This document shows positions 7,956 to 52,458 of a stretch of DNA of 64,000 bases, piece after piece. The position numbers were made by a program, and so were the translations under genes. This stretch comes from Acidimicrobiia bacterium (GTDB lineage: Bacteria > Actinomycetota > Acidimicrobiia > Spongiisociales > UBA11373), in NCBI GenBank assembly GCA_036478235.1, contig JAZGDZ010000040.1, positions 12,841 to 76,840 of the forward strand, given 5' to 3'. Under the pieces are notes generated by a model, which was given only the letters and a program-made list of their open reading frames with translations, had not been told where the DNA came from and searched no databases. Numbering within the stretch: position 1 is the first letter of the stretch; each line of letters starts with the position of its first letter.

Positions 7956-8215
7956 GCTCGTTCATCTGCAGTCGAAGATGATAGGCCGAGTCCCGGCACG
8001 GGTCGAAGATCGGAGCCTGCAGACCTGCGACCGCCGGACAGGCACGAGGCCGGCGCAGCTGCGCCGGCCTCGAGATCCCTTCCTCTGGTCCGGAGCGGAT
8101 GATTCCGGACCACGAATTAATGAGGAGATAGCCCGCTAAGACCATAAGCCGAACCGCGACGCGCTACAACGGCCATTTCCCGCGGTACCGACGGACTAGT
8201 CAAGCGGCGTGACCA

Positions 8216-8580
8216 AGAGCGTCCGCAAATAGGCGGACGCTCTTTCGCGATGTTGATGGCTCTTCGCCGTACGGCTCATCGCTGGTTTGGCTACGGCTTT
8301 CGGGATTTGGCTCCGTATTTGGCTGCGGCGTTCGGGTCCTATCCGGCCCCGAGACGCCTCCGCATGGATGAGCCGCCCTGCGGGCGGCGCTCCGTTCTAC
8401 GTTCGAGTCCTGCTCGGCCTGGAAACGCCTCCGCATGGTGGATCCGCCCTTCGGGCGGACAGCGTTCTACCTGTTCGGCCCCGAAGAGCCTCCGCATGGT
8501 TGTGCCGCCTTGTAGGCGACGCAGTGCTCTACTGCCCGAGGGCCCCAGCCCCAGGCCGCCGAGTCCGCGCCTATCGGCGC
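8216..8580. repeat. Array of modular intergenic repeats. A hairpin module (AGAGCGTCCGC-loop-GCGGACGCTCT, 8216-8243), then an ATGGCTCTTCGCCGTACGGCTCATCGCTGG module, then three tandem ~60-bp units (8338-8527) each with a GCCGCCC-TGC-GGGCGGC hairpin, then a GGCCGCCGAGTCCGCGCCT module
   Basis: Direct reading. The same modules recur at 12048-12179, 36378-36600, 40323-40670 (reverse complement), 50955-51085 and 51923-52092. Confidence 0.9.
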
Positions 8581-8585
8581 GCCCT

Positions 8586-9860
8586 CTAAGCGCTGCGCTC
8601 TTCGGGCAAATCCTTGCCGATGTCCTGCATCGGGATGAGCGTCGGATTGACGCGCTCGCGCACCACGTCGCCGTCGATCATCACCCGGGCCACGTCCTCG
8701 CGACCCGGCAGCTCGTACATCGTGTCGAGAAGGACCTCCTCGAGGATGGCCCTCAACCCTCGGGCCCCGATGGCACGCAGCATCGCCTGATCGGCCACGG
8801 CCTCGAGAGCGTCGTCGGAGAAGACGAGCTCCACGCCGTCCATCTCGAAGAACTTGGCGTACTGCTTGACCAGGGCGTTTTTCGGCTCGAGCAGCACCCT
8901 TATGAGCTGCTCGCGGTCCAGATCGTGCACCGTCGTGGTCACCGGGAGCCGGCCGATGAACTCGGGGATCAGGCCGAAGGTCATCAGATCCTCGGGAAGC
9001 ACGTCCGAGAGGGTGTCTGCGTCCCGGTCCCGGTCGCTGTGAACGTGAGCGTCGAAGCCGATGGCGCGCTTACCCACCCGACGCTCGATGATGTGCTCCA
9101 GCCCCGAGAAGGCCCCGCCGCAGATGAACAGCATGTTCGTGGTGTCGATCTGCAGGAACTCCTGGTGAGGATGCTTTCGCCCACCCTGGGGCGGGACGGA
9201 GGCGACGGTTCCCTCGAGGATCTTCAGGAGCGCCTGCTGAACGCCCTCGCCCGAGACGTCGCGGGTGATGGACGGGTTCTCCGCCTTGCGAGCGATCTTG
9301 TCGATCTCGTCGATGTAGATGATCCCCGTCTCGGCTCGCTTGATGTCGTAGTCCGCCGCCTGAATGATCTTCAGCAGAATGTTCTCGACGTCCTCACCGA
9401 CGTACCCGGCCTCGGTGAGCGCCGTGGCGTCGGCGATGGCGAACGGGACGTTCAGCGTCCGCGCCAGAGTCTGGGCGAGCAGGGTCTTGCCCGAACCCGT
9501 CGGCCCGATGAGCAGGATGTTGGACTTCTGCAGCTCGATGTCGTCCTTTGATCGCTGCCCGACCCGCACCCGCTTGTAGTGGTTGTAGACCGCCACCGAG
9601 AGGACCTTCTTGGCCAACTCCTGCCCCACCACGTAGTCCTCCAGGAAGGTGTAGATCGCCGCGGGCTTGGGAAGCTCGTCGAAGGGCGTCTCCTCGGTCG
9701 TGGCGAGTTCCTCCTCGATGATCTCGTTGCAGAGATCGATGCACTCGTCACAGATATAGACACCCGGACCGGCGATGAGCTTCTTGACCTGCTTCTGCGT
9801 CTTGCCGCAGAAGGAACACTTCAGAAGGTCACCGCCGCCGGTCTCACCGAATTTCGACAT
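8586..9860 (-). CDS. clpX: ATP-dependent Clp protease ATP-binding subunit ClpX
   Basis: N-terminal C4 zinc finger (CSFCGK...CDEC), Walker A GPTGSGKT, and ClpX motifs. Confidence 0.95.
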
Positions 9861-11952: not shown

Positions 11953-12047
11953 TTCTGCTCCTCCATCGAACACAACAGAGCGAGACGGCGCCCATGCCGC
12001 CTCGCCGAATCTCATCGCCCTTCACCATACGGCCCATCACCAGTCTG

Positions 12048-12179
12048 GCTCCGACGCTCGGGATCTGGCTCCGAGACGCCTCCGCACGGTGGTGCCGCCC
12101 CAAGAGGCGGCGCCATATTCTACGACCCGGGTCCCGGCCCAGGCCGCCGAGTCCACGCCTGTCGGCGTGTGCTCTTCGG
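12048..12179. repeat. Copy of the modular intergenic repeat (GGCTCCG...GAGACGCCTCCGCACGG...GCCGCCGAGTCCACGCCTGTCGGCG)
   Basis: Sequence similarity to 8280-8580. Confidence 0.8.
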
Positions 12180-12256
12180 GGTGACCGAGGGGATTTGAAC
12201 CCCCGACATCCGGGACCACAACCCGGCGCTCTAACCTGACTGAGCTACGGCCACCA
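12180..12256 (-). tRNA. tRNA-His (GTG)
   Basis: Reverse complement GGTGGCCGTAGCTCAGTCAGGTTAGAGCGCCGGGTTGTGGTCCCGG...GGTTCAAATCCCCTCGGTCACC. Anticodon loop TTGTGGT. Extra 5' G typical of tRNA-His. Confidence 0.85.
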
Positions 12257-12270
12257 TGACAGAGAGCCTG

Positions 12271-12343
12271 TGCCCCCGGAAGGATTCGAACCTCCGACCA
12301 AGAGCTTAGAAGGCTCCTGCTCTGTCCACTGAGCTACGGGGGC
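12271..12343 (-). tRNA. tRNA-Arg (TCT)
   Basis: Reverse complement GCCCCCGTAGCTCAGTGGACAGAGCAGGAGCCTTCTAAGCTCTTGGTCGGAGGTTCGAATCCTTCCGGGGGCA. Confidence 0.8.
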
Positions 12344-12371
12344 GATAGTCCGACCGTGCCGGTCTCTCTGG

Positions 12372-12442
12372 AGCGGGTGAGGGGAATCGAACCCCCGTAG
12401 CCAGCTTGGAAGGCTGGAGCTCTGCCGTTGAGCTACACCCGC
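12372..12442 (-). tRNA. tRNA-Gly (TCC)
   Basis: Reverse complement GCGGGTGTAGCTCAACGGCAGAGCTCCAGCCTTCCAAGCTGGCTACGGGGGTTCGATTCCCCTCACCCGC. Confidence 0.85.
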
Positions 12443-12521
12443 ACAGCGATCGGGAGATTAGCTCGGCACCTGCACGTACCAACTCAACGCCAGTCTCCAG
12501 CCTCCAATGCGGGGTTGGCCG

Positions 12522-13361
12522 CTATTTGGGTGGTCCGGCGGCGACTCGATCGAAGGCTTCGTCGTAACTGCCTCGTCCCCAGTCGATGAGTTCAACCCAC
12601 CAGGTCGCACCCGCCTGCCTGTAACTCTCGACCTTTTCTCCGTCGTCGGGTTGGGATACGTCGGCCCAGGCAATGTCGTAGGGCTGGTCAGTGTCTCTCT
12701 CGGTCTCGATGGTTCCACGGAAGGAGGCCAGGTCATTGGGGGTCCATTCTTTACCCCAAGGATCAGAAGGACCGATCCAACCATCCCAGCGTGCTGCCCG
12801 GCGGAGGGCTGCGGGGCTGTCTCCGCCAACCCATATCGGAACCCGAGGCTTCTGCACGAGGTTGAGATCGACTGCTACCCCAGCCACCTCGTAATGAGTG
12901 CCTTTGTGGTTGACCTCATCGCCGGACCACAGTCGGGTCACGACATCCAAACTTTCGTCGAGCATTTCGCCGCGAACGCGTGGGTTGCCGGATTCGCCGA
13001 ACACCTCGAACTCGTCGGCAAAGAAACCGATGCCGACTCCCAACGTCATCCTGCCCTCCGAAAGAACATCGAGACTCGACACGGTGGTTGCGAGAGTCTG
13101 CGGTTTGTAGCGAGGAACGATCGCTACGCACGTACCGATCCTGATGGTCTTCGTGGCAGCAGAGACCGCACTCAGAACGACCCAAGGGTCATAGACCGAC
13201 GGAACGCCGTCCCGCCAGAAAAACAAAGAGTCCCACGTGAAAAAGCCGTCCCAGCCGGTTTCCTCAGCGGTCCGCGCTAGGGAAGCAGCGTCGCGTGGAT
13301 GACCAAACCTCTCGGTGTTCGGACAACAAACAGCGAACTTCAATCGCGGTGCGTCAGACAT
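12522..13361 (-). CDS. LLM-class F420-dependent oxidoreductase (luciferase-like monooxygenase family)
   Basis: TIM-barrel LLM motifs (MSDAPRLKFAVCCP..., GIGFFADEFEVFG). The window also carries fbiA/cofE. Start taken at ATG 13361. Confidence 0.75.
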   Translation of the reverse strand: MSDAPRLKFAVCCPNTERFGHPRDAASLARTAEETGWDGFFTWDSLFFWRDGVPSVYDPWVVLSAVSAATKTIRIGTCVAIVPRYKPQTLATTVSSLDVLSEGRMTLGVGIGFFADEFEVFGESGNPRVRGEMLDESLDVVTRLWSGDEVNHKGTHYEVAGVAVDLNLVQKPRVPIWVGGDSPAALRRAARWDGWIGPSDPWGKEWTPNDLASFRGTIETERDTDQPYDIAWADVSQPDDGEKVESYRQAGATWWVELIDWGRGSYDEAFDRVAAGPPK

Positions 13362-13668
13362 CGCCGTGCCAATCTTATCCCCCGCCAGACACCCGATCGG
13401 GCTCGCCATGTGCCAGGAAGACAACCCTTCTCCGCGTCGGGCGTGACCCTTCTCCGCGACAGCCAACGCCTCGCGATGCTGCTCCACTACGAAGAACTAG
13501 CACGAGCCGCCAGATAGGAGGGAAGCAACCCGGAACCCGTAGCGTGACCGACCCGTTCGAGACCGAGCAGGCTCGAACGGGGTCGGACCCCCCAACCAAT
13601 CGAGCTCCGCTCGATTGACTCCCCTCGAGCGGTTCGAGACCGGGTAGGACTCGAACCCGCGAGATGAG

Positions 13669-13742
13669 TCGGGCTGGCCGGATTTGAACCGGCGACCCCC
13701 TGCTCCCAAAGCAGGTGCGCTGCCAAGCTGCGCCACAGCCCG
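13669..13742 (-). tRNA. tRNA-Pro (TGG)
   Basis: Reverse complement CGGGCTGTGGCGCAGCTTGGCAGCGCACCTGCTTTGGGAGCAGGGGGTCGCCGGTTCAAATCCGGCCAGCCCGA. Confidence 0.8.
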
Positions 13743-13764
13743 TTGAACGGCATTGTGCCAGCCA

Positions 13765-13835
13765 CTCGTGCGGGCGGTGGGATTCGAACCTTCTCCGCGC
13801 CACCGGCGAGCCGCGATGCTCGCTCCCTCAAGAGA
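13765..13835 (-). pseudogene. Degenerate duplicate of the tRNA-Leu 3' half (T-arm and acceptor 3' strand) fused to a shared GGAGCGAGCATCGCGG...CGCGGAGAAGG module
   Basis: Reverse complement ...GGGAGCGAGCATCGCGGCTCGCCGGTGGCGCGGAGAAGGTTCGAATCCCACCGCCCGCACGAG. The last 24 nt equal the 3' end of tRNA-Leu at 13937-13960. No 5' half. Confidence 0.6.
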
Positions 13836-13936
13836 GTGAGGACGAGAGTAGCTGGGGATGAGGGGAGTGGGGCGTTGTGGCGAGGGGAGCTTCGAGGCCG
13901 AGCAGGACTCGAAGTTCTCCGACCTCGTATGCGTCC

Positions 13937-14025
13937 TGGTGCGGGCGGTGGGATTCGAACCCACAGCGGGTCTGAGACCCACCGGATCCTAAGTCCGGCG
14001 CCTATGCCGGTTCGGCTACGCCCGC
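13937..14025 (-). tRNA. tRNA-Leu (TAG), class II with a long variable arm, CCA encoded
   Basis: Reverse complement GCGGGCGTAGCCGAACCGGCATAGGCGCCGGACTTAGGATCCGGTGGGTCTCAGACCCGCTGTGGGTTCGAATCCCACCGCCCGCACCA. Confidence 0.85.
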
Positions 14026-14084
14026 GCAGATCCCAGGGTATCGGCAGACGATCTCACCGTTTGCCAAAACGCTATTCTCGCCGC

Positions 14085-14157
14085 GGGTCGCTAGCTCAAC
14101 CTGGCAGAGCAACGGACTCTTAATCCGCAGGTTCGGGGTTCGAATCCCCGGCGACCC
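14085..14157 (+). tRNA. tRNA-Lys (CTT)
   Basis: GGGTCGCTAGCTCAACCTGGCAGAGCAACGGACTCTTAATCCGCAGGTTCGGGGTTCGAATCCCCGGCGACCCA. Confidence 0.8.
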
Positions 14158-14264
14158 ACCGGCTCGCGAACGAATCCCGCGGCACATCGCCGCCGACTGG
14201 CGGCGACGCTTGCTCCCCACCAATCGACGAGAACCTCATCCCCCGCGGCTCGCATCGGCGCCTC

Positions 14265-28325: not shown

Positions 28326-28333
28326 GGTCTTTG

Positions 28334-28683
28334 TGGAGGTGCGGGGAGTCGAACCCCGGTCCTCTGAGGCTTCGGCGTCGGCATCTCCGAGCGCAGCCGA
28401 TAGCGAGCTTCGGAACGCGGGGCCCTATCGGCGGGTGGTCCTGCGCCCTAGCCGGAGTTGGTCTTGACCCGCCGGTCCCGGCATCCCGGCGGAGGCATCC
28501 CCTATTGCGACGCCCGGACCTGGTGAGAGGGGAACCCTCCAGACGGACGGACTGCGTTGTTAGGCAGCCAGTGCGAAGTTGTCTTCGGCACTTGGTTTGT
28601 TTCCCGGCTCTTTAACGAGGACTCCGGGGACCTCGGCTCGCTTCCGACGCTTCAACCCTCAAAGTCGAAACCATGTCACCCCC
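28334..28683 (-). ncRNA. ssrA: tmRNA (ssrA)
   Basis: Reverse complement starts GGGGGTGACATGGTTTCGACTTTGAGGGTTGAAGCGTCGG and ends GACCGGGGTTCGACTCCCCGCACCTCCA. Tag ORF ...GCCGAAGACAACTTCGCACTGGCTGCCTAA gives (A)EDNFALAA*. Adjacent to smpB. Confidence 0.9.
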
Positions 28684-36331: not shown

Positions 36332-36377
36332 GAGAACGCCATCATATCGGTGGGGTCGCGCTGCGGAATAGAGGGGT

Positions 36378-36600
36378 AAAGAGGGCGCACCGACAGGCGC
36401 GGACTCGGCGGCCTGGGGCTGGGGACCCCGGGCCGTACAGCGATGAGCCGTAAGGCGAAGAGCCATCGACAAAGAGGGCGCGCCGCTAGGCGCGGACTCG
36501 GCGGCCTGGAGCGAGCGCCGTAGCCAAACCAGCGATGAGCCGTAAGGCGAAGAGCCATCAGCATCGGTTGAGAGTCCGCTTCATAAGCGGACACTCAACG
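36378..36600. repeat. Two tandem ~94-bp copies of repeat module (AGAGGGCGCRCCG-AGGCGCGGACTCGGCGGCCTGG...CAGCGATGAGCCGTAAGGCGAAGAGCCATC) plus a terminal hairpin (TTGAGAGTCCGC-ttcataa-GCGGACACTCAA)
   Basis: Direct reading. Homologous to 50955-51085 and, in reverse complement, to 8216-8300. Confidence 0.85.
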
Positions 36601-38962: not shown

Positions 38963-39610
38963 CTACAGCTCGATCAGTTTCTCGCGGACGGCGTACAGAA
39001 CCGCTTCGTTGCGGGAATGCAATCCGAGCTTGTCGAGGATGTTTCGCACGTGGTTCTTCACGGTGTTCTCACTGATGAATAGCACGTGACCGACTTGCTT
39101 TGATGTCATTCCGCGGGCGACATGCTTGAGCACCTCGATCTCGCGACCGGTCAGAGTGGGCTTGCGCGGGGCCAGAAAGTCCTGGTGCCGGAGCAGCTGG
39201 TTGAGGACATCGAGCAGCTTGCCGGTCATCGTCGGCGAGATCGACGCTCCGCCGTCCGCCACATCATGGAGGTCGCGGGCGAGGTCGGAGAAGGGAACGT
39301 CCTTGACGAGGTAGCCGCGGGCACCTGCCTTGATGCACGCCAGGAGATCTTCCTCGGACTCGCTCGCCGTCAGCATCACGATCGCCGTTGCCGGAGCCAC
39401 GGCGAGGATCTTCTCGACCGCCTCGAGCCCGGAGACGCCCGGCATCAGGATGTCGAGCACGACTAGATCGGGCTGTTCGGCTTCGGCCAGCGACACGGCG
39501 TGCTCGGCGTCCGCCGCCTCACCGCACACCGTGAAGCCCGCCCCGGAGAGGGCGGCCGAGAGACCGGTCCGGAACAGGTCTACGTCGTCTACGACTATTA
39601 CACGGCTCAC
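38963..39610 (-). CDS. NarL/LuxR-family response regulator (REC + HTH), orphan
   Basis: MSRVIVVDDVDLFRTGL...DLVVLDILMPGVSG... then GREIEVLKHVARGMTSKQVGHVLFISENTVKNHVRNI. ATGA overlap with hpf. Confidence 0.88.
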   Translation of the reverse strand: MSRVIVVDDVDLFRTGLSAALSGAGFTVCGEAADAEHAVSLAEAEQPDLVVLDILMPGVSGLEAVEKILAVAPATAIVMLTASESEEDLLACIKAGARGYLVKDVPFSDLARDLHDVADGGASISPTMTGKLLDVLNQLLRHQDFLAPRKPTLTGREIEVLKHVARGMTSKQVGHVLFISENTVKNHVRNILDKLGLHSRNEAVLYAVREKLIEL

Positions 39611-40159
39611 TGTGGTTCGATCAGCCCGAGCGTGCCTCCGCGGCGCCGGTACAACACTCCGTACCGGTCTGTCTCCGCGTTGAGGAACAGATAGAAGCTG
39701 TGTCCAAGCGTCTCCATCTGAAGGGCTGCCTCCTCTGGCGTCATCGGCTTGACGGCGAACTGCTTGATCCGCTCGATGCGGAGTCCGCGGTCTTCATCGT
39801 TGGTTACTTCGACGCCAGAGGCGGGGCCATTGAGTCGTTTCTCACCGCGCCGGTGCCGGGAGATGAGCCGCTCCTTGAGCCGCCGCAAGGTTCGCTCGAA
39901 TTTGTCCACAGCCCTGTCGAGAGCGGCACGCTCGTCGAACTCGGCCGCTTCGACTCTCACCGTGTGACCTGCCGCCGCTGCGGTGATCTCGACGCGGAAT
40001 CGTTCCGAAGCGATTCTGGGGTTGTGCTCCTCGGAGAATTCGACGTCGGCGAACGCAGCATCGTCAAACACCCTGGACGCATGGATGACCTTCTCTTCGG
40101 CAAGGATCCTCAGGTCGTCGTCGAGGGACATGTGATTGCCGTGGATACGAACCTCCACC
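39607..40159 (-). CDS. hpf: Ribosome hibernation promoting factor, long form
   Basis: VEVRIHGNHMSLDDDLRILAEEKV... plus a C-terminal dimerisation domain. GTG start 40159 with AAGGAG 5 nt upstream. The ORF-track 5' extension was rejected. Confidence 0.8.
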
Positions 40160-40322
40160 GTGTCTCCTTTCGCAGACGCGTCAGAACACCGTTTGGGCGC
40201 GGTCGGTGTGGCGAGCGTTGGGCCGGTAACGATGCGGGGCTCTTGGCACCCGTCCTCCCGTAGCTCTCGGTCCCCGTCTCGGGGGCTCACTACATCCTAC
40301 GGATGATCCGGGAGTTGCGTTG

Positions 40323-40670
40323 GCCAGGAGTCTGCTGAGTGATGCCGTTGCTCAGATCGTGGAACACAGCGCCGCCCGCAGGGCGGCTCAATCATGCGGA
40401 GGCGCTTCGGGGCCGAGCAGGACCCGAACGCCGCAGCCAAACCGGGCCAGGCGCGCCAGTCGCCAGGATCTCGGGTTCGCCACTCCTCGCGCAGGAATGG
40501 CGGGACCGTGGACACCGCTAGTGGCGATGTAGATCACAGCGCCGCCCGCAGGGCGGCACGTCCATGCGGAGGTGCTTCGGGGTCGAGCAGGACTCGAACG
40601 CCGCAGCCAAATACGTAGCCAAATACGGAGCCAAATCTGGACGTCGAGATGAGTGACATGTATTGCTCAG
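40323..40670. mobile_element. MITE-like non-autonomous element (~350 bp) with ~17-bp imperfect terminal inverted repeats (GCCAGGAGTCTGCTGAGT ... TGCTCAGCGGGCTCCCAG) and an internal tandem duplication of a ~130-bp hairpin unit
   Basis: Termini read directly. Interior is the reverse complement of the 8280-8420 modules. A shorter derivative lies at 51923-52092. Confidence 0.7.
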
Positions 40671-40681
40671 CGGGCTCCCAG

Positions 40682-41704
40682 TCAGCAGGGTCCCACCGCA
40701 CACGAGGGAGGCGGTACCGGGGCCCGGGCAACATGATCGACGAACCTCTTGATCGACGACACGAGGGATACGTCGATTTTCACCCGGTGACCCTGGGGCA
40801 GCCATATGTACCGGACGCTGGTACCCAGGTCACAACCGAACCAGAATCCCGCCTGGCCGCCCGTGTGCGTGGTCGTGATCGGATCCTCTGCGGAGCAGCC
40901 ATTCCGATCGACCCAGCGCCGGACGGTCTCTTCGGCAGACGGATATGGCGCCCACACCTCGTTCAAGACTGACAGGCTGCCGCCTCTGAAGGAGACGGCT
41001 CGATCGTAGATGCCGTGAACGTGCAGGACGCTCACGGGGTATGACGGGGTGCAAGCGGAGGGGTCCCAGGGTTCGACACCCGAGATGGCAACCACCGCGG
41101 TGACCAGATCAGAGATGTCGCAGGCGAGCCGGTAGGCCATGAAGGCGCCGTTGGAGAGCCCCACAACGATCACCCGGCTGGGGTCTACGGGGTAGCGCTC
41201 GATGGCCTCCGTGATGAATTGCCGAAGATAGGACACGTCGTCGTTGCCCCGCAGATAGCGATCGCAGCAGGTCGGAGTCGCGTTCCAGTACGGCCGCCCC
41301 AGAGCGTCGGTCAGACCGGCGGGGGCGACGATGATCCAGCCCGATGTCACCGCGACCTGCCCGATGGCAAAGTTGTTGACGACGTCCTCGACGCGTCCGG
41401 AATACGAATGCAGCAGCACGATGAGGGGCCGCTCCCGGTCTCCCAGATCCGGCGGCAGCAGCTTTCCAGGGATCCGCTCCTCGGAAGAGGCCTCCACGGG
41501 CGCGGCGCTCTCTGGTTCGCTCTCACCCCGCAGGATGACAGGATCCTGACGGCCACCCCGGTCCTCCTCTGCCCCGGCACTCTCGGGGATGGAGGCAGCA
41601 CCCGGACGCGGCGCCACCACCAGGCCGATCGTCGCGGCACAGACCGCCAAGACGAGTGCGGAGCGAACCTTGCGATGGTGAGAAAGAAATCGCATGGGTG
41701 TCAT
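40682..41704 (-). CDS. Secreted alpha/beta-hydrolase (PHB-depolymerase/LpqC-type esterase)
   Basis: Signal peptide, GLSNGAFM nucleophile elbow, and an esterase_phb-like fold. Confidence 0.75.
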   Translation of the reverse strand: MTPMRFLSHHRKVRSALVLAVCAATIGLVVAPRPGAASIPESAGAEEDRGGRQDPVILRGESEPESAAPVEASSEERIPGKLLPPDLGDRERPLIVLLHSYSGRVEDVVNNFAIGQVAVTSGWIIVAPAGLTDALGRPYWNATPTCCDRYLRGNDDVSYLRQFITEAIERYPVDPSRVIVVGLSNGAFMAYRLACDISDLVTAVVAISGVEPWDPSACTPSYPVSVLHVHGIYDRAVSFRGGSLSVLNEVWAPYPSAEETVRRWVDRNGCSAEDPITTTHTGGQAGFWFGCDLGTSVRYIWLPQGHRVKIDVSLVSSIKRFVDHVARAPVPPPSCAVGPC

Positions 41705-51607: not shown

Positions 51608-51835
51608 TCAGGCGACTTCGAGCGAGACGAACAGCGGCCGTACCGCGGTCCGGCGATCGACCAGGGTCCATCCGACCGGCGGGGTCAGACGGCCGGCATG
51701 CTCCTCGCACATCGGATAGCCGGCTCCGGGCATGATCGGATCGGCCAGGTCGTCAAGCCACAACAGCCGATCGTCGTAGGCGAACGACATGACGATTCCG
51801 GCCGGGGCGGCGCAACGGACGCAGTGCTCGGTCAT
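51608..51835 (-). CDS. DUF3499 family protein
   Basis: MTEHCVRCAAPAGIVMSFAYDDRLLWLDDL...PMCEEHAGRLTPPVGWTLVDRR. Resembles the conserved actinobacterial small protein encoded near manB. Confidence 0.65.
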   Translation of the reverse strand: MTEHCVRCAAPAGIVMSFAYDDRLLWLDDLADPIMPGAGYPMCEEHAGRLTPPVGWTLVDRRTAVRPLFVSLEVA

Positions 51836-51922
51836 AGCCGGGAAGATTAATCACATAGATGTGATTAGCGGTGGAGGCAACCCGATCGCGGGCCCGCCCT
51901 CCGAGAGAATGTCGGTCAGCCC

Positions 51923-52092
51923 GCCAGGAGTCTGCTGAGTAATGCCGTTGCTCAGATCGGCGGCCAGACGCGCCACTCGCCAGGACCTCGGATTCGCCAC
52001 TCCTCGCGCAGGAATGGCGGGACCGAGGACACCGCGAGCGGTGATGGATGGTCGCCGAGATGAGTGACATGTATTGCTCAGCGGGCTCCTAG
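51923..52092. mobile_element. Short (~170 bp) derivative of the 40323-40670 MITE-like element with the same termini
   Basis: gccaggagtctgctgagtaatgccgttgctcag...gagatgagtgacatgtattgctcagcgggctcctag. Its right end supplies the last 5 codons and the TGA of the 52078-52458 gene. Confidence 0.7.
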
Positions 52093-52458
52093 CCTCACCG
52101 CGCTCCGCAGCCTGCGCCTTGAAACCTTCCCGGCGAGACGAGCCAGTTCGACGCCGTCCGCATCCCTCACCACGACCAGTGGTACCCCGATCACCCCAAC
52201 GCGGCGCTGCAGGTCGGGGGAATCCGAATAAGAGATCTCCCTGTAGTCGACACCGAGACGGTCGAGTTCGGCCCGCACCGCGTCGCATCTCGAACACACG
52301 GAGTCGCTGAAGAAGAGGATGCGCCCCTCGACACCGGTCAGATGAAGCGCCGTCCGCAGCACATTTCGCCGATCTCGGCTACGGGCGGCCGCGGCGACGA
52401 GCAGGGCGACACCAAGTGCCCCGCCCACCAGCGCCACCCGGGGAAGGAGCTCAATCAT
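52078..52458 (-). CDS. Membrane-anchored glutaredoxin/thioredoxin-like protein
   Basis: N-terminal TM (LLPRVALVGGALGVALLVAAAA), CxxC (FFSDSVCSRCDAV), glutaredoxin-like fold. Confidence 0.65.
   Translation of the reverse strand: MIELLPRVALVGGALGVALLVAAAARSRDRRNVLRTALHLTGVEGRILFFSDSVCSRCDAVRAELDRLGVDYREISYSDSPDLQRRVGVIGVPLVVVRDADGVELARLAGKVSRRRLRSAVRLGAR

What the first reader, a model, noticed from the sequence alone, without database searches (positions are those of the whole stretch)
40323..40670. MITE-like element with terminal inverted repeats; two copies, one a deletion derivative, both supplying 3' gene ends
40323-40670 and 51923-52092 share termini GCCAGGAGTCTGCTGAGT...TGCTCAGCGGGCTCC(C/T)AG, an imperfect ~17-bp TIR. 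The long copy holds an internal tandem duplication of a ~130-bp hairpin unit that the short copy lacks. The right end of the short copy encodes the last five codons and the TGA of the thioredoxin-like gene (52078-52458). The long copy ends 12 nt before the esterase stop. This suggests a small non-autonomous transposable element that has remodelled gene 3' ends.
Basis: seen in the sequence. Interest (0 to 1): 0.55.

Follow-up and report, generated by a model that had tools for sequence, protein, structure and literature searches.

The report
Hairpin MITE family of uncultured Acidimicrobiia
The two sequences are copies of a roughly 170-base mobile hairpin repeat (a MITE) found in many uncultured Acidimicrobiia genomes; it sits on the rare CTAG tetranucleotide, often at a gene's stop codon, and the long copy carries two insertions of a second small repeat, so this is a new family of a well-known kind of element.

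Summary
The repeat is real. The termini are right, but the long copy ends at 40681, not 40670, so it abuts the esterase stop codon.

- **Family.** The canonical element is about 169 nt and the whole of it folds into one hairpin. An exact 20-mer scan found it at 47 loci in 16 species-level assemblies, nearly all labelled Acidimicrobiia or Actinomycetota. One MAG holds 19 loci.
- **Ends.** The ends read N-CTA|GGAGTCTGCTGAGT…GCTCAGCGGGCTCC|TAG-N, so the target is CTAG. CTAG is 2- to 8-fold under-represented in the window. In about half to two-thirds of copies a neighbouring ORF ends in or against an element end.
- **Mobility.** Orthologous sites in relatives lack both window copies.
- **Long copy.** It is not a tandem duplication and the short copy is not its deletion derivative. 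It is the canonical element plus two nested copies of an independent ~85-nt structured module. That module also occurs elsewhere in the window and in metagenomes.
- **Gene ends.** The short copy does supply the last four codons and the TGA of the glutaredoxin-like gene.
- **Open points.** No transposase was found. All 36 copies fold much better on one strand (13 G·U and 0 A·C pairs in the consensus), which a plain double-stranded DNA transposon does not explain.

Verdict: new member of a known kind, moderate interest.

The parts
51924..52092 (+). Short, canonical copy of the hairpin MITE. Core GGAG...CTCC is 51927-52089. It is flanked by CCA on the left (a CTA variant) and TAG on the right.
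   Evidence: nhmmer gives 172 bits on the sense strand against 44 on the antisense strand. It folds as one hairpin at -117 kcal/mol, z = -9.5.
40324..40681 (+). Long copy: the same MITE backbone (core 40327-40678) flanked by CCA...CAG, carrying two nested modules.
40327..40358 (+). Backbone segment A of the long copy: left terminus and outer left arm.
   Evidence: Alignment to the short copy.
40359..40444 (+). Nested module 1. It begins GTGGAAC and contains the GCCGCCC-GCA-GGGCGGC hairpin, CATGCGGAGG and a third hairpin. It sits in the left arm after ...CAGATC.
   Evidence: the repeat finder family D1. Module HMM hit at 75 bits. Alignment of 46 distinct module copies.
40445..40528 (+). Backbone segment B: inner arms and tip of the hairpin, also present in the short copy.
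   Evidence: (MITE HMM positions 39-124).
40529..40642 (+). Nested module 2 (40529-40613) plus its 3' tail, three 12-nt repeats CGNAGCCAAATA (40602-40637). It sits in the right arm after GGCGAT, the site most often occupied in other copies.
   Evidence: D1, D2; 82 bits.
40643..40678 (+). Backbone segment C: outer right arm and right terminus.
40682..41704 (-). Esterase (PHB-depolymerase-like, Abhydrolase_2) gene. Its stop codon (40682-40684) directly abuts the right end of the long copy.
39607..40158 (-). Ribosome hibernation factor (S30AE/HPF) gene. The likely GTG start is at 40158. A conserved 164-nt leader (40159-40322) lies between it and the long copy.
   Evidence: Pfam. The ortholog in L057 is 184 aa. 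The leader is conserved in L056 and L057.
52078..52458 (-). Glutaredoxin-like gene. Its last four codons (CTA GGA GCC CGC) and the TGA (52078-52092) are MITE sequence.
   Evidence: Orthologs end differently and lack the element.
51608..51835 (-). DUF3499 gene downstream of the short copy. The palindrome TAATCACATAGATGTGATTA (51839-51858) lies between the gene and the element.
   Evidence: The palindrome is conserved in L051 and L053.

Best explanation
Both sequences are copies of a non-autonomous mobile repeat, a MITE of about 169 nt whose two halves pair along its whole length.

**Most likely mechanism (inferred).** A transposase encoded elsewhere moves it by cut-and-paste into the palindromic target CTAG. 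Either the central TA is duplicated (IS630/Tc1-like) or all of CTAG is duplicated (IS5-like).

**Why it sits at gene ends.** CTAG is rare in these 66% G+C genomes, and a sizeable share of the sites are C-TAG stop codons. Insertions inside genes are presumably removed by selection. The surviving copies therefore pile up exactly at gene 3' ends. There they keep the TAG, or they supply a nearby TGA/TAA when the TAG has mutated.

**The window copies.** The short copy landed in a CTAG three codons before the stop of the glutaredoxin-like gene and replaced the last residues. The long copy landed just after the esterase stop. It carries two copies of a second, independent ~85-nt structured module in internal loops of the hairpin.

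**Likely effect.** Once inserted, the element is probably transcribed with its neighbours. Its very stable hairpin then probably acts as a 3'-end barrier or processing site. Pairing has been maintained on one particular strand.

**Shown:** the repeat family, its ends, its absence from orthologous sites, the nested modules, conservation of the hairpin and the strand asymmetry. **Inferred:** the transposase type, the target duplication and any RNA function.
For: **Dispersal.** An exact 20-mer from the left end hits 47 loci in 16 species-representative assemblies, 19 of them in one MAG, plus 3 chance hits. The flanks are unrelated. Many copies lie at contig ends, as expected for a multi-copy repeat.

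**Ends.** Among the 36 full copies the left flank is CTA in 25 and the right flank is TAG in 26. The bases beyond these are variable.
- Head-to-tail tandems share one CTAG (L001, L021, L036, L093, L111; three copies in L040).
- Copies with right flank TAA or TAT (L011, L024, L041, L036) fit a TA duplication in a non-canonical target.

**Target rarity.** The window has 26 CTAG, against 201 expected from base composition and 52 from a Markov estimate. About 8 of the 26 coincide with the stop of a long ORF.

**Stop-codon position.**
- An upstream same-strand ORF ends in the left CTAG in 12 copies.
- It reads 15-19 nt further to an element stop in 5 copies.
- A convergent ORF ends in or against the right end in about 8 copies.

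**Absence at orthologous sites.**
- The Grx-like to DUF3499 spacer is 38 nt in L051 and 47 nt in L053, against 242 nt in the window genome.
- In L056 (esterase 67% identical) 18 nt replace the 359-nt element, and both flanks align.

**Hairpin conservation.** 96.5% of cells are paired. Ten pairs show changes on both sides (reached by 2 of 500 shuffles). The covariation score is 0.192 against 0.125 for shuffles.

**Derivatives.** There are truncated copies and a 52-nt terminal-only copy in L035.

**Literature.**
- Bacterial MITEs are under 200 bp, have TIRs and terminal TA, and give long stem-loop transcripts. RUP is attributed to IS630-Spn1, and ERIC has orientation-dependent effects on mRNA (PMC2229807).
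- IS630 prefers the TA in CTAG (Tenzen and Ohtsubo 1991, listed in PMC2170065).
- An IS5-related MITE duplicates CTAG (PMC3189936).
Against: **No transposase.** No transposase gene and no longer element with these termini was found.
- The window has only the two left termini.
- About 880 kb of related loci hold no pair of inverted termini 450-3500 nt apart, apart from one chance match in L029.
- The ORFs beside the solo or truncated left ends in L043 and L027 include no evident transposase, read from their translations only, since no family search was run on them.
- Plasmids and viral contigs gave nothing.
- A 41-aa peptide read from the left arm matches only short ORFs of 35-99 aa.

**Duplication unproven.** TA and CTAG duplication give the same string, so the target duplication itself is not demonstrated. 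The available empty sites come from relatives too distant to show the exact pre-insertion sequence.

**Strand asymmetry.** A plain double-stranded cut-and-paste element does not predict it.
- All 36 copies fold better on the same strand, by 30 kcal/mol on average.
- The consensus has 13 G·U and 0 A·C pairs.
- The asymmetry persists with DNA energy parameters.

**Other points.**
- All three independent tandem junctions are head-to-tail.
- Both window copies are antisense to their neighbouring genes, so a read-through transcript would carry the weaker version of the hairpin.
Confidence: 0.7

Rival explanations
1. The element is mobilised as single-stranded DNA, in the manner of REPIN/RAYT or IS200/IS605. 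One particular strand folds into the hairpin and is cut and inserted next to CTAG by a tyrosine/HUH-type enzyme. The 'TIRs' are then just the foot of that hairpin.
For: - Every one of 36 copies is much more stable on the same strand. The consensus has 13 G·U and 0 A·C pairs.
- One-sided variants that keep sense-strand pairing outnumber those that would keep antisense pairing, 23 to 10.
- The asymmetry holds with DNA parameters.
- All tandem copies are head-to-tail.
- Copies between same-direction genes are co-oriented with them 12 to 5.
- A CTAG on the left flank plus a CTAG at the element's 3' end gives the same string as a duplication.
Against: - No Y1/HUH gene was seen. Only 18 window proteins were scanned against Pfam.
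- The hairpin element has no GTAG tag at its foot, which defines most RAYT-associated REPs (PMC3733652).
- IS200/IS605 derivatives have separate subterminal hairpins at each end, not one hairpin across the whole element (my own knowledge).
- The orientation and tandem counts are small. The 12:5 split gives p of about 0.14.
- The G·U excess could come from RNA-level selection, or from strand-biased C-to-T change in a master copy.
Confidence: 0.15
2. The copies are maintained mainly because the transcribed hairpin is useful, whatever moves them. It could act as a terminator-like barrier, a 3' stabiliser or an RNase III-type processing site for the upstream gene. The element would then be a domesticated regulatory RNA module. 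This is compatible with either mobilisation route.
For: - The strand-specific pairing includes conserved G·U pairs and compensatory changes across 16 species.
- Copies lie immediately after stop codons. Only 1 of 26 classifiable copies lies between divergent genes.
- One orthologous insertion is retained in six assemblies (L001, L021, L036, L093, L111, L024).
- ERIC and Correia provide precedents (PMC2229807).
Against: - There are no expression data.
- No promoter-like or U-tailed terminator-like site is found at either window copy.
- Both window copies are antisense to their neighbouring genes.
- The position after stop codons is already explained by the CTAG target plus selection against insertions inside genes.
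- In the retained orthologous copy the element diverges faster than the adjacent coding DNA (82-97% against 93-99.7% identity).
Confidence: 0.3
3. The long copy arose from the short form by an internal tandem duplication, or the short copy arose by deletion from the long form.
For: Two direct repeats lie 170 nt apart inside the long copy.
Against: - The repeated unit is only about 85 nt. Beyond it the sequences do not match, and the 84 nt between the two units is backbone that the short copy also has.
- The same unit occurs without any MITE at 8316-8532(-) as three tandem copies, at 12042-12123(-), in L006 and at 39 metagenome loci.
- It sits at different backbone positions in other MITE copies. 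At one orthologous locus different species carry the left module, the right module or both.
Confidence: 0.02
4. The similarity reflects conserved gene 3' ends or a chance match, not a repeat family.
For: None beyond the position at gene ends.
Against: - The two flanking genes are unrelated.
- The 18-mer match has a chance expectation of 0.06.
- Orthologs lack the sequence.
- 47 further loci carry it next to unrelated genes.
Confidence: 0.01

Closest known systems
RUP (Streptococcus pneumoniae) and other IS630-related MITEs; IS630 target choice
   Same: Small size (RUP is 107 bp), terminal inverted repeats, TA at both ends and a transcript predicted to form a long stem-loop (PMC2229807). IS630 prefers the TA inside CTAG (Tenzen and Ohtsubo 1991, cited in PMC2170065). 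The flanks seen here are C-TA...TA-G.
   Different: RUP's termini match those of a known IS630-Spn1. Here no IS with matching termini was found. The host phylum and the sequence are unrelated. The strong one-strand pairing bias was not something I found described for RUP.
MITEPsy1 / IS5-group elements (Pseudomonas syringae)
   Same: A 100-nt MITE with 18-nt TIRs that inserts at CTAG (or YTAA) and duplicates it (PMC3189936). The string CTAG|GAG...CTC|CTAG seen here fits that model equally well.
   Different: The terminal sequence differs (GGAAGGTCTGAAAAAGCC). MITEPsy1 has a candidate parent, ISPsy2. The element here is a full-length hairpin and has no candidate parent.
Correia/NEMIS (Neisseria) and ERIC/IRU (enterobacteria)
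   Same: - They are dispersed 100-160-bp imperfect palindromes with TA at the termini.
- They are co-transcribed with neighbouring genes and form long RNA stem-loops.
- They have size variants that differ by an internal block (Correia 107 against 155 bp).
- They fuse with ORF ends.
- ERIC has an orientation-dependent effect on mRNA stability (PMC2229807).
   Different: No RNA evidence exists here. The internal block here is a separate repeat family that also lives outside the MITE, which is not described for the Correia 50-bp block in the text I read.
GTAG-tagged REPs / REPINs and BIME-like mosaics (relevant to the nested module, and to the single-strand rival)
   Same: The module starts with GT(A/G)G followed by a G+C-rich palindrome. 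It lies downstream of genes, occurs singly or in short arrays and combines with other intergenic repeat motifs. REPs show the same genomic habits (PMC3733652).
   Different: - In REPs the tag directly adjoins a 20-40-bp palindrome. Here about 8 nt separate them.
- The module is about 85 nt with two further conserved hairpins and invariant loop sequences.
- No RAYT gene was identified.
- The hairpin MITE itself has no GTAG tag.

Membership tests
Bacterial MITE (generic; traits as listed in PMC2229807) | Small (about 100-200 bp) with no protein-coding capacity | tested here: met
   The canonical length is 168-171 nt, or 187-190 nt in one MAG. The longest internal reading frame is 41 codons and matches only short spurious ORFs.
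Bacterial MITE (generic; traits as listed in PMC2229807) | Terminal inverted repeats | tested here: met
   GGAGTCTGCTGAGT pairs with GCTCAGCGGGCTCC, and pairing continues through the whole element.
Bacterial MITE (generic; traits as listed in PMC2229807) | Many dispersed copies in unrelated contexts | tested here: met
   47 loci in 16 assemblies, 19 of them in one MAG. There are two copies in the 64-kb window. The rest of the window's own genome could not be scanned.
Bacterial MITE (generic; traits as listed in PMC2229807) | Filled versus empty orthologous sites | tested here: met
   Both window sites are empty in relatives. These relatives are distant (45-67% protein identity), so the exact empty-site sequence is not recoverable.
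Bacterial MITE (generic; traits as listed in PMC2229807) | Target-site duplication | tested here: inconclusive
   TA or CTAG is present at both ends in most copies. Because CTAG is a palindrome that also extends the hairpin, duplication cannot be separated from element sequence.
Bacterial MITE (generic; traits as listed in PMC2229807) | Cognate autonomous IS with the same termini | tested here: inconclusive
   Not found in the window, in about 880 kb of loci, in plasmids or in viral contigs. Whole genomes of the hosts were not available to search.
IS630/Tc1-mariner-derived MITE | TA duplication, with a preference for CTAG | tested here: inconclusive
   The flanks are C-TA and TA-G. Four copies have TA-A or TA-T on the right, which fits TA duplication better than CTAG duplication. 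This is not decisive.
IS630/Tc1-mariner-derived MITE | Termini matching an IS630-family transposase gene's inverted repeats | tested here: inconclusive
   No such IS was found.
IS5-group-derived MITE | 4-bp duplication of CTAG/YTAR and termini matching an IS5-group IS | tested here: inconclusive
   The string is compatible. The left and right tetranucleotides differ in 17 of 36 copies, which needs later mutation under this model. No matching IS was found.
IS481-type insertion (6-bp NCTAGN duplication; my own knowledge of the family) | Identical 6-bp repeats NCTAGN at both ends | tested here: not met
   Under this model the left copy of the 6-mer ends in the element's first G and the right copy begins with its last C. 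The base before the left CTAG would then have to be C and the base after the right CTAG would have to be G. Both are variable.
REPIN / GTAG-REP with RAYT | Unpaired GTAG (or CGTC) tag at the foot of the palindrome (PMC3733652) | tested here: not met
   The hairpin element starts (C)TAGGAG and has no GTAG or CGTC tag. The nested module does start with GT(A/G)G, but with an 8-nt spacer.
REPIN / GTAG-REP with RAYT | Associated tyrosine transposase gene flanked by the repeats | not tested
   Only 18 window proteins were scanned against Pfam and none was a transposase. Host genomes could not be searched.
Any Rfam RNA family | Covariance-model match at the gathering score | tested here: not met
   The whole window gives only tmRNA and six tRNAs. 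Permissive scans of both repeat regions give only chance-level hits.

The most novel reading that the evidence does not exclude
The hairpin element and the ~85-nt module nested in it are parts of a strand-specific, modular system of structured mobile repeats. They would be propagated or selected as single-stranded nucleic acid (ssDNA or RNA), not as ordinary double-stranded transposons. Modules are gained and lost precisely in loops of other structured repeats, and no classical transposase is involved. This would be an actinobacterial counterpart of REPIN/BIME biology with a new mobilising activity.
Probability: 0.2. Interest if true: 0.7.

Novelty: new member of a known kind. Interest (0 to 1): 0.4.

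Why it matters
**Practical consequences**
- The family changes annotated gene ends, as with the glutaredoxin-like C-terminus here.
- It spawns spurious short ORFs in protein databases.
- It breaks MAG assemblies. Many copies sit at contig ends.
- It can flag mislabelled or mis-binned contigs. Copies occur in bins labelled Gammaproteobacteria and Acidobacteria, and the Acidobacteria-labelled contig has flanks orthologous to Acidimicrobiia loci.

**Biological interest**
- It shows cleanly how a CTAG-seeking element in a CTAG-poor, high-G+C genome ends up on stop codons.
- The uniform one-strand pairing bias and the precisely gained and lost nested modules are not explained by textbook MITE biology. 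They could be tested with existing metatranscriptomes and long-read assemblies.

Tried and rejected
- **Known RNA family.** Rfam found nothing at the gathering score for the whole window, nor in permissive scans of 8150-8650, 40250-40750 and 40120-40330.
- **tRNA-derived module.** The reverse complement of the module resembles a T-arm, but ARAGORN and Rfam find only the true tRNAs and the would-be T-stem does not pair. I dropped the idea.
- **Tandem duplication in the long copy.** Rejected.
- **6-bp NCTAGN duplication.** Rejected.
- **Search for an autonomous partner.** All of these were negative:
  - ORFs next to the solo or truncated left ends in L043 and L027, read from their translations only.
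  - Scan for inverted termini 450-3500 nt apart in all held loci. The single hit, in L029, lies inside ordinary dehydrogenase-type genes.
  - blastn against plasmids.
  - Viral contig scan.
  - A 41-aa peptide from the left arm searched against 1.84 billion representative proteins, which matched only short ORFs.
- **Module in viral contigs.** The two hits are both chance matches in coding DNA.
- **Promoter and terminator scans.** None at either copy.
- **Closer empty sites.** An all-against-all comparison of flanks found no new empty site.
- **Failed look-ups.** Exact-sequence look-ups of the esterase failed twice.

Full report
**1. Checking the observation**

The two stretches exist and lie on the same strand.
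- The 18-mer GCCAGGAGTCTGCTGAGT occurs only at 40323 and 51923, even allowing 3 mismatches. Chance would give 0.06 matches.
- TGCTCAGCGGGCTCC occurs at 40664-40678 and 52075-52089.
- An alignment splits the long copy into three backbone segments shared with the short copy and two extra blocks. With the extra blocks removed, the copies agree at 149 of 159 aligned bases.

Three details in the finding are wrong.
- The long copy runs to 40681 (…GGGCTCCCAG), not 40670. It therefore touches the esterase stop codon, TCA at 40682-40684 on the minus strand.
- The extra DNA is two direct copies of an ~85-nt unit (40359-40444 and 40529-40613; 74 of 83 bases identical). The second copy has a 12-nt x3 tail. 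Between the two units lie 84 nt of backbone that the short copy also has. This is not a tandem duplication of a 130-bp unit.
- The short gene end holds four codons plus the TGA, not five codons plus the TGA.

**2. What the element is**

The short copy folds into a single hairpin that uses almost every base (-117 kcal/mol, z = -9.5).

A scan of one genome per bacterial and archaeal species with the 20-mer GGAGTCTGCTGAGTNATGCC returned 50 loci.
- Three are chance matches in unrelated organisms.
- The other 47 lie in 16 assemblies, almost all labelled Acidimicrobiia or Actinomycetota. Nineteen are in one MAG.
- The window's own proteins are named as coming from an Acidimicrobiia MAG.

I extracted 36 complete copies, counting the two in the window.
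- 30 have the module-free form: 168-171 nt, or 187-190 nt in the copy-rich MAG, which has an extra small hairpin in the left arm.
- One is a 52-nt terminal-only derivative (L035).
- Five are longer.
- Truncated copies also exist (L015, L038, L043, L045). So do head-to-tail tandems that share one CTAG (L001, L021, L036, L093, L111; three copies in L040).
- Many copies sit at contig ends, as expected of a repeat that breaks assemblies.

**3. Ends and target**

The copies read N-CTA|GGAGTCTGCTGAGT … GCTCAGCGGGCTCC|TAG-N. The outermost N positions are variable, so the insertion site is CTAG.

Three models give the same sequence string and cannot be told apart by sequence alone:
- a TA duplication inside CTAG, as shown for IS630 (Tenzen and Ohtsubo 1991, listed in PMC2170065);
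- a 4-bp CTAG duplication, as for the IS5-related MITEPsy1 (PMC3189936);
- a strand-specific insertion next to CTAG.

Four copies have TAA or TAT on the right, which leans toward TA duplication. A 6-bp NCTAGN duplication is excluded, because it would require a C before the left CTAG and a G after the right CTAG, and both positions vary. Variants CCAG and CTGG are common at the left end (10 of 36 copies). The window's long copy has CCAG at both ends.

**4. Why the copies sit at gene ends**

- CTAG is scarce in the window: 26 sites, against 201 expected from composition and 52 from a Markov estimate.
- About 8 of the 26 coincide with the TAG stop of a long ORF (loose criteria).
- With a heuristic ORF caller, an upstream same-strand ORF ends exactly in the left CTAG in 12 copies. 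It reads 15-19 nt further to an element-borne TGA/TAA in 5 copies whose CTAG has mutated. A convergent ORF ends in or against the right end in about 8 copies.
- Only 1 of 26 classifiable copies lies between divergent genes.

**5. The two window sites in relatives**

*Short copy.* In two relatives the glutaredoxin-like gene is 54% and 45% identical to the window's.
- There it is followed after 38 and 47 nt by the DUF3499 gene, with only a conserved palindrome between them.
- The window genome has 242 nt at this position, and the same sequence is present in a second assembly.
- Reading across the element, I infer the pre-insertion C-terminus as …SAVRLAG*. It now reads …SAVRLGAR*.

*Long copy.* In a relative with a 67% identical esterase, the stop codon is followed by 18 nt and then by the same conserved hpf leader as in the window.
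- The 359-nt element is missing while both flanks align.
- A 47% identical relative also lacks it.

These relatives are too distant to show the exact empty site.

**6. The extra blocks in the long copy**

A profile built from five copies of the block finds it elsewhere:
- at 8316-8532(-), three in tandem downstream of clpX;
- at 12042-12123(-), between tRNA-His and the trigger-factor gene;
- in L006.

A metagenome scan with a module pattern gave 69 loci, of which 39 hold true modules, 57 in all. Their contexts are:
- inside a third intergenic repeat with a conserved leader and trailer;
- inside MITE copies;
- other contexts.

Inside MITEs the module is always co-oriented with the hairpin's better-folding strand. 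By my reading of the consensus fold it sits in internal loops. The right arm after GGTGATG is the usual site. The left arm after CGCAAG is used in several copies. The left arm after CAGATC is seen only in the window.

At one orthologous locus different assemblies carry both modules (L093), the left only (L021) or the right only (L001, L036, L111). The module is therefore gained or lost cleanly. It matches no Rfam family. Forty-six distinct copies share near-invariant CCRTGCGGAGG and GCCGARYAGGA stretches.

**7. An unexpected property of the hairpin**

- All 36 copies fold better on the same strand, by 30 kcal/mol on average.
- The consensus structure has 13 G·U pairs and no A·C pair. These G·U pairs occur in both polarities.
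- 96.5% of cells pair on this strand, against 79% on the other.
- Ten pairs show compensatory double changes (reached by 2 of 500 shuffles).
- One-sided variants that keep sense pairing outnumber those that would keep antisense pairing, 23 to 10.
- The bias also appears with DNA energy parameters. It therefore points to a single-stranded form of one strand, RNA or DNA, without saying which.
- Strand-biased C-to-T change in a master copy is a possible non-selective contributor.

**8. Mechanism**

My best explanation (0.7) has two parts.
- The element is a non-autonomous transposon moved in trans by a DDE transposase that targets CTAG. It accumulates at stop codons for the reasons given in section 4.
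- It is co-transcribed, and its hairpin acts as a barrier or processing site.

The main weaknesses are the absence of any transposase and the strand asymmetry. The transposase searches are listed under what was tried and rejected.

The rivals are:
- mobilisation as single-stranded DNA (0.15);
- retention mainly for an RNA function (0.3), which is compatible with either mobilisation route;
- the tandem-duplication reading of the long copy and the chance or conserved-gene-end reading, which are both refuted.

**9. Comparison with known elements**

The element behaves like RUP, Correia/NEMIS, ERIC and MITEPsy1 (PMC2229807, PMC3189936). It is small, has inverted-repeat ends, has TA or CTAG at the termini, forms a long stem-loop, fuses with ORF ends and has size variants.

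It meets the generic MITE criteria that I could test. Membership in an IS630-derived or IS5-derived group stays open, because the defining match to a parent IS could not be shown. It fails the defining GTAG-tag criterion of REP/REPIN elements (PMC3733652). The nested module, though, has a REP-like GT(A/G)G start.

I found no paper describing this family in two literature searches, one aimed directly at Acidimicrobiia repeats. That is weak evidence of novelty.

**10. Verdict**

This is a real, dispersed, previously unannotated MITE family: a new member of a known kind. Interest is moderate (0.4). It comes from the strand-specific hairpin and the precisely inserted nested modules, not from the MITE itself.

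Noticed in passing
window 8316-8532(-), 12042-12123(-), 40359-40444(+), 40529-40642(+); L006:1249-1331; 39 of the loci L061-L129: This is an ~85-nt structured module. It begins GT(A/G)GA and contains the hairpin GCCGCCC-GNA-GGGCGGC, a near-invariant CCRTGCGGAGG, a third hairpin with the loop GCCGARYAGGA, and an AGCCAAA tail that is sometimes repeated. It occurs singly or in arrays of 2-3, downstream of genes, inside MITE copies and inside another repeat. There is no Rfam match. Its way of spreading is unknown.
   Followed up: partly
window 36371-36600(+), 8215-8592(-), 11975-12183(-); L006:1195-1385: This is a third intergenic repeat. It has the leader AAGAGGGCGCGCCGnnAGGCGCGGACTCGGCGGCCTGGGG and the trailer GCGATGAGCCGTAAGGCGAAGAGCCATC, followed by a terminator-like hairpin. 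Two module-free units lie in tandem at 36.4 kb. At 8.3 kb, at 12 kb and in L006 the module sits between leader and trailer. The arrangement resembles a BIME-like mosaic or an sRNA family. It is not in Rfam.
   Followed up: partly
window 40159-40322(-): A 164-nt leader upstream of the ribosome hibernation factor gene is conserved in L056 and L057 (…GGATCATCCGTAGGATGT…GAGCCCCCGAGACGGGGACC…GGGAGGACGGGTGCCA.GAGCCCCGCA). It may be a structured 5' UTR. No Rfam match was found, including no raiA motif.
   Followed up: partly
window 51839-51858; L051:3389-3410; L053:3393-3411: A perfect or near-perfect palindrome, TAATCACA-N4-TGTGATTA, lies just upstream of the DUF3499 gene and is conserved in two distant relatives. 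It looks like an operator for an unknown regulator.
   Followed up: no
whole window; element ends in L004, L006, L013, L022, L029, L032, L046, L047, L049 and both window copies: CTAG is 2- to 8-fold under-represented in the window (26 sites). At the left end of the element the CTAG is often replaced by CCAG or CTGG (10 of 36 copies), against 1 of 36 at the right end. That is the kind of change a T:G mismatch-repair bias would produce. The left-right difference is unexplained.
   Followed up: partly
L032, L037 (CAXMPS01, labelled Gammaproteobacteria); L036 (JACZWZ01, labelled Acidobacteria): Full-length copies occur in bins carrying other phylum labels. L036's flanks are 88-93% identical to Acidimicrobiia loci L001 and L021, so that contig or bin label is probably wrong. 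The element could serve as a lineage marker for checking bins.
   Followed up: partly
L002, L003, L005, L007-L009, L013, L016, L022, L030, L047, L048, L050 (MAG CAZEHO01): A subfamily of 187-190 nt has a small extra hairpin (GTGGCGTGCCCGCCGGGCACGTT) replacing part of the left arm. Its copies are nearly identical to one another, which suggests a recent burst in that genome.
   Followed up: partly
L024:1020-1260(-): This copy lies at the same orthologous gene end as L001, L021, L036, L093 and L111. At the usual right-arm site it carries a different ~70-nt insert that does not match the module profile.
   Followed up: no
window 28333-28683(-) and 12178-14160: There is a tmRNA with the short tag peptide AEDNFALAA, and a cluster of six tRNA genes. 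Weak partial matches to the module (E = 0.003-0.06) lie in the spacers next to tRNA-Pro and tRNA-Leu.
   Followed up: no
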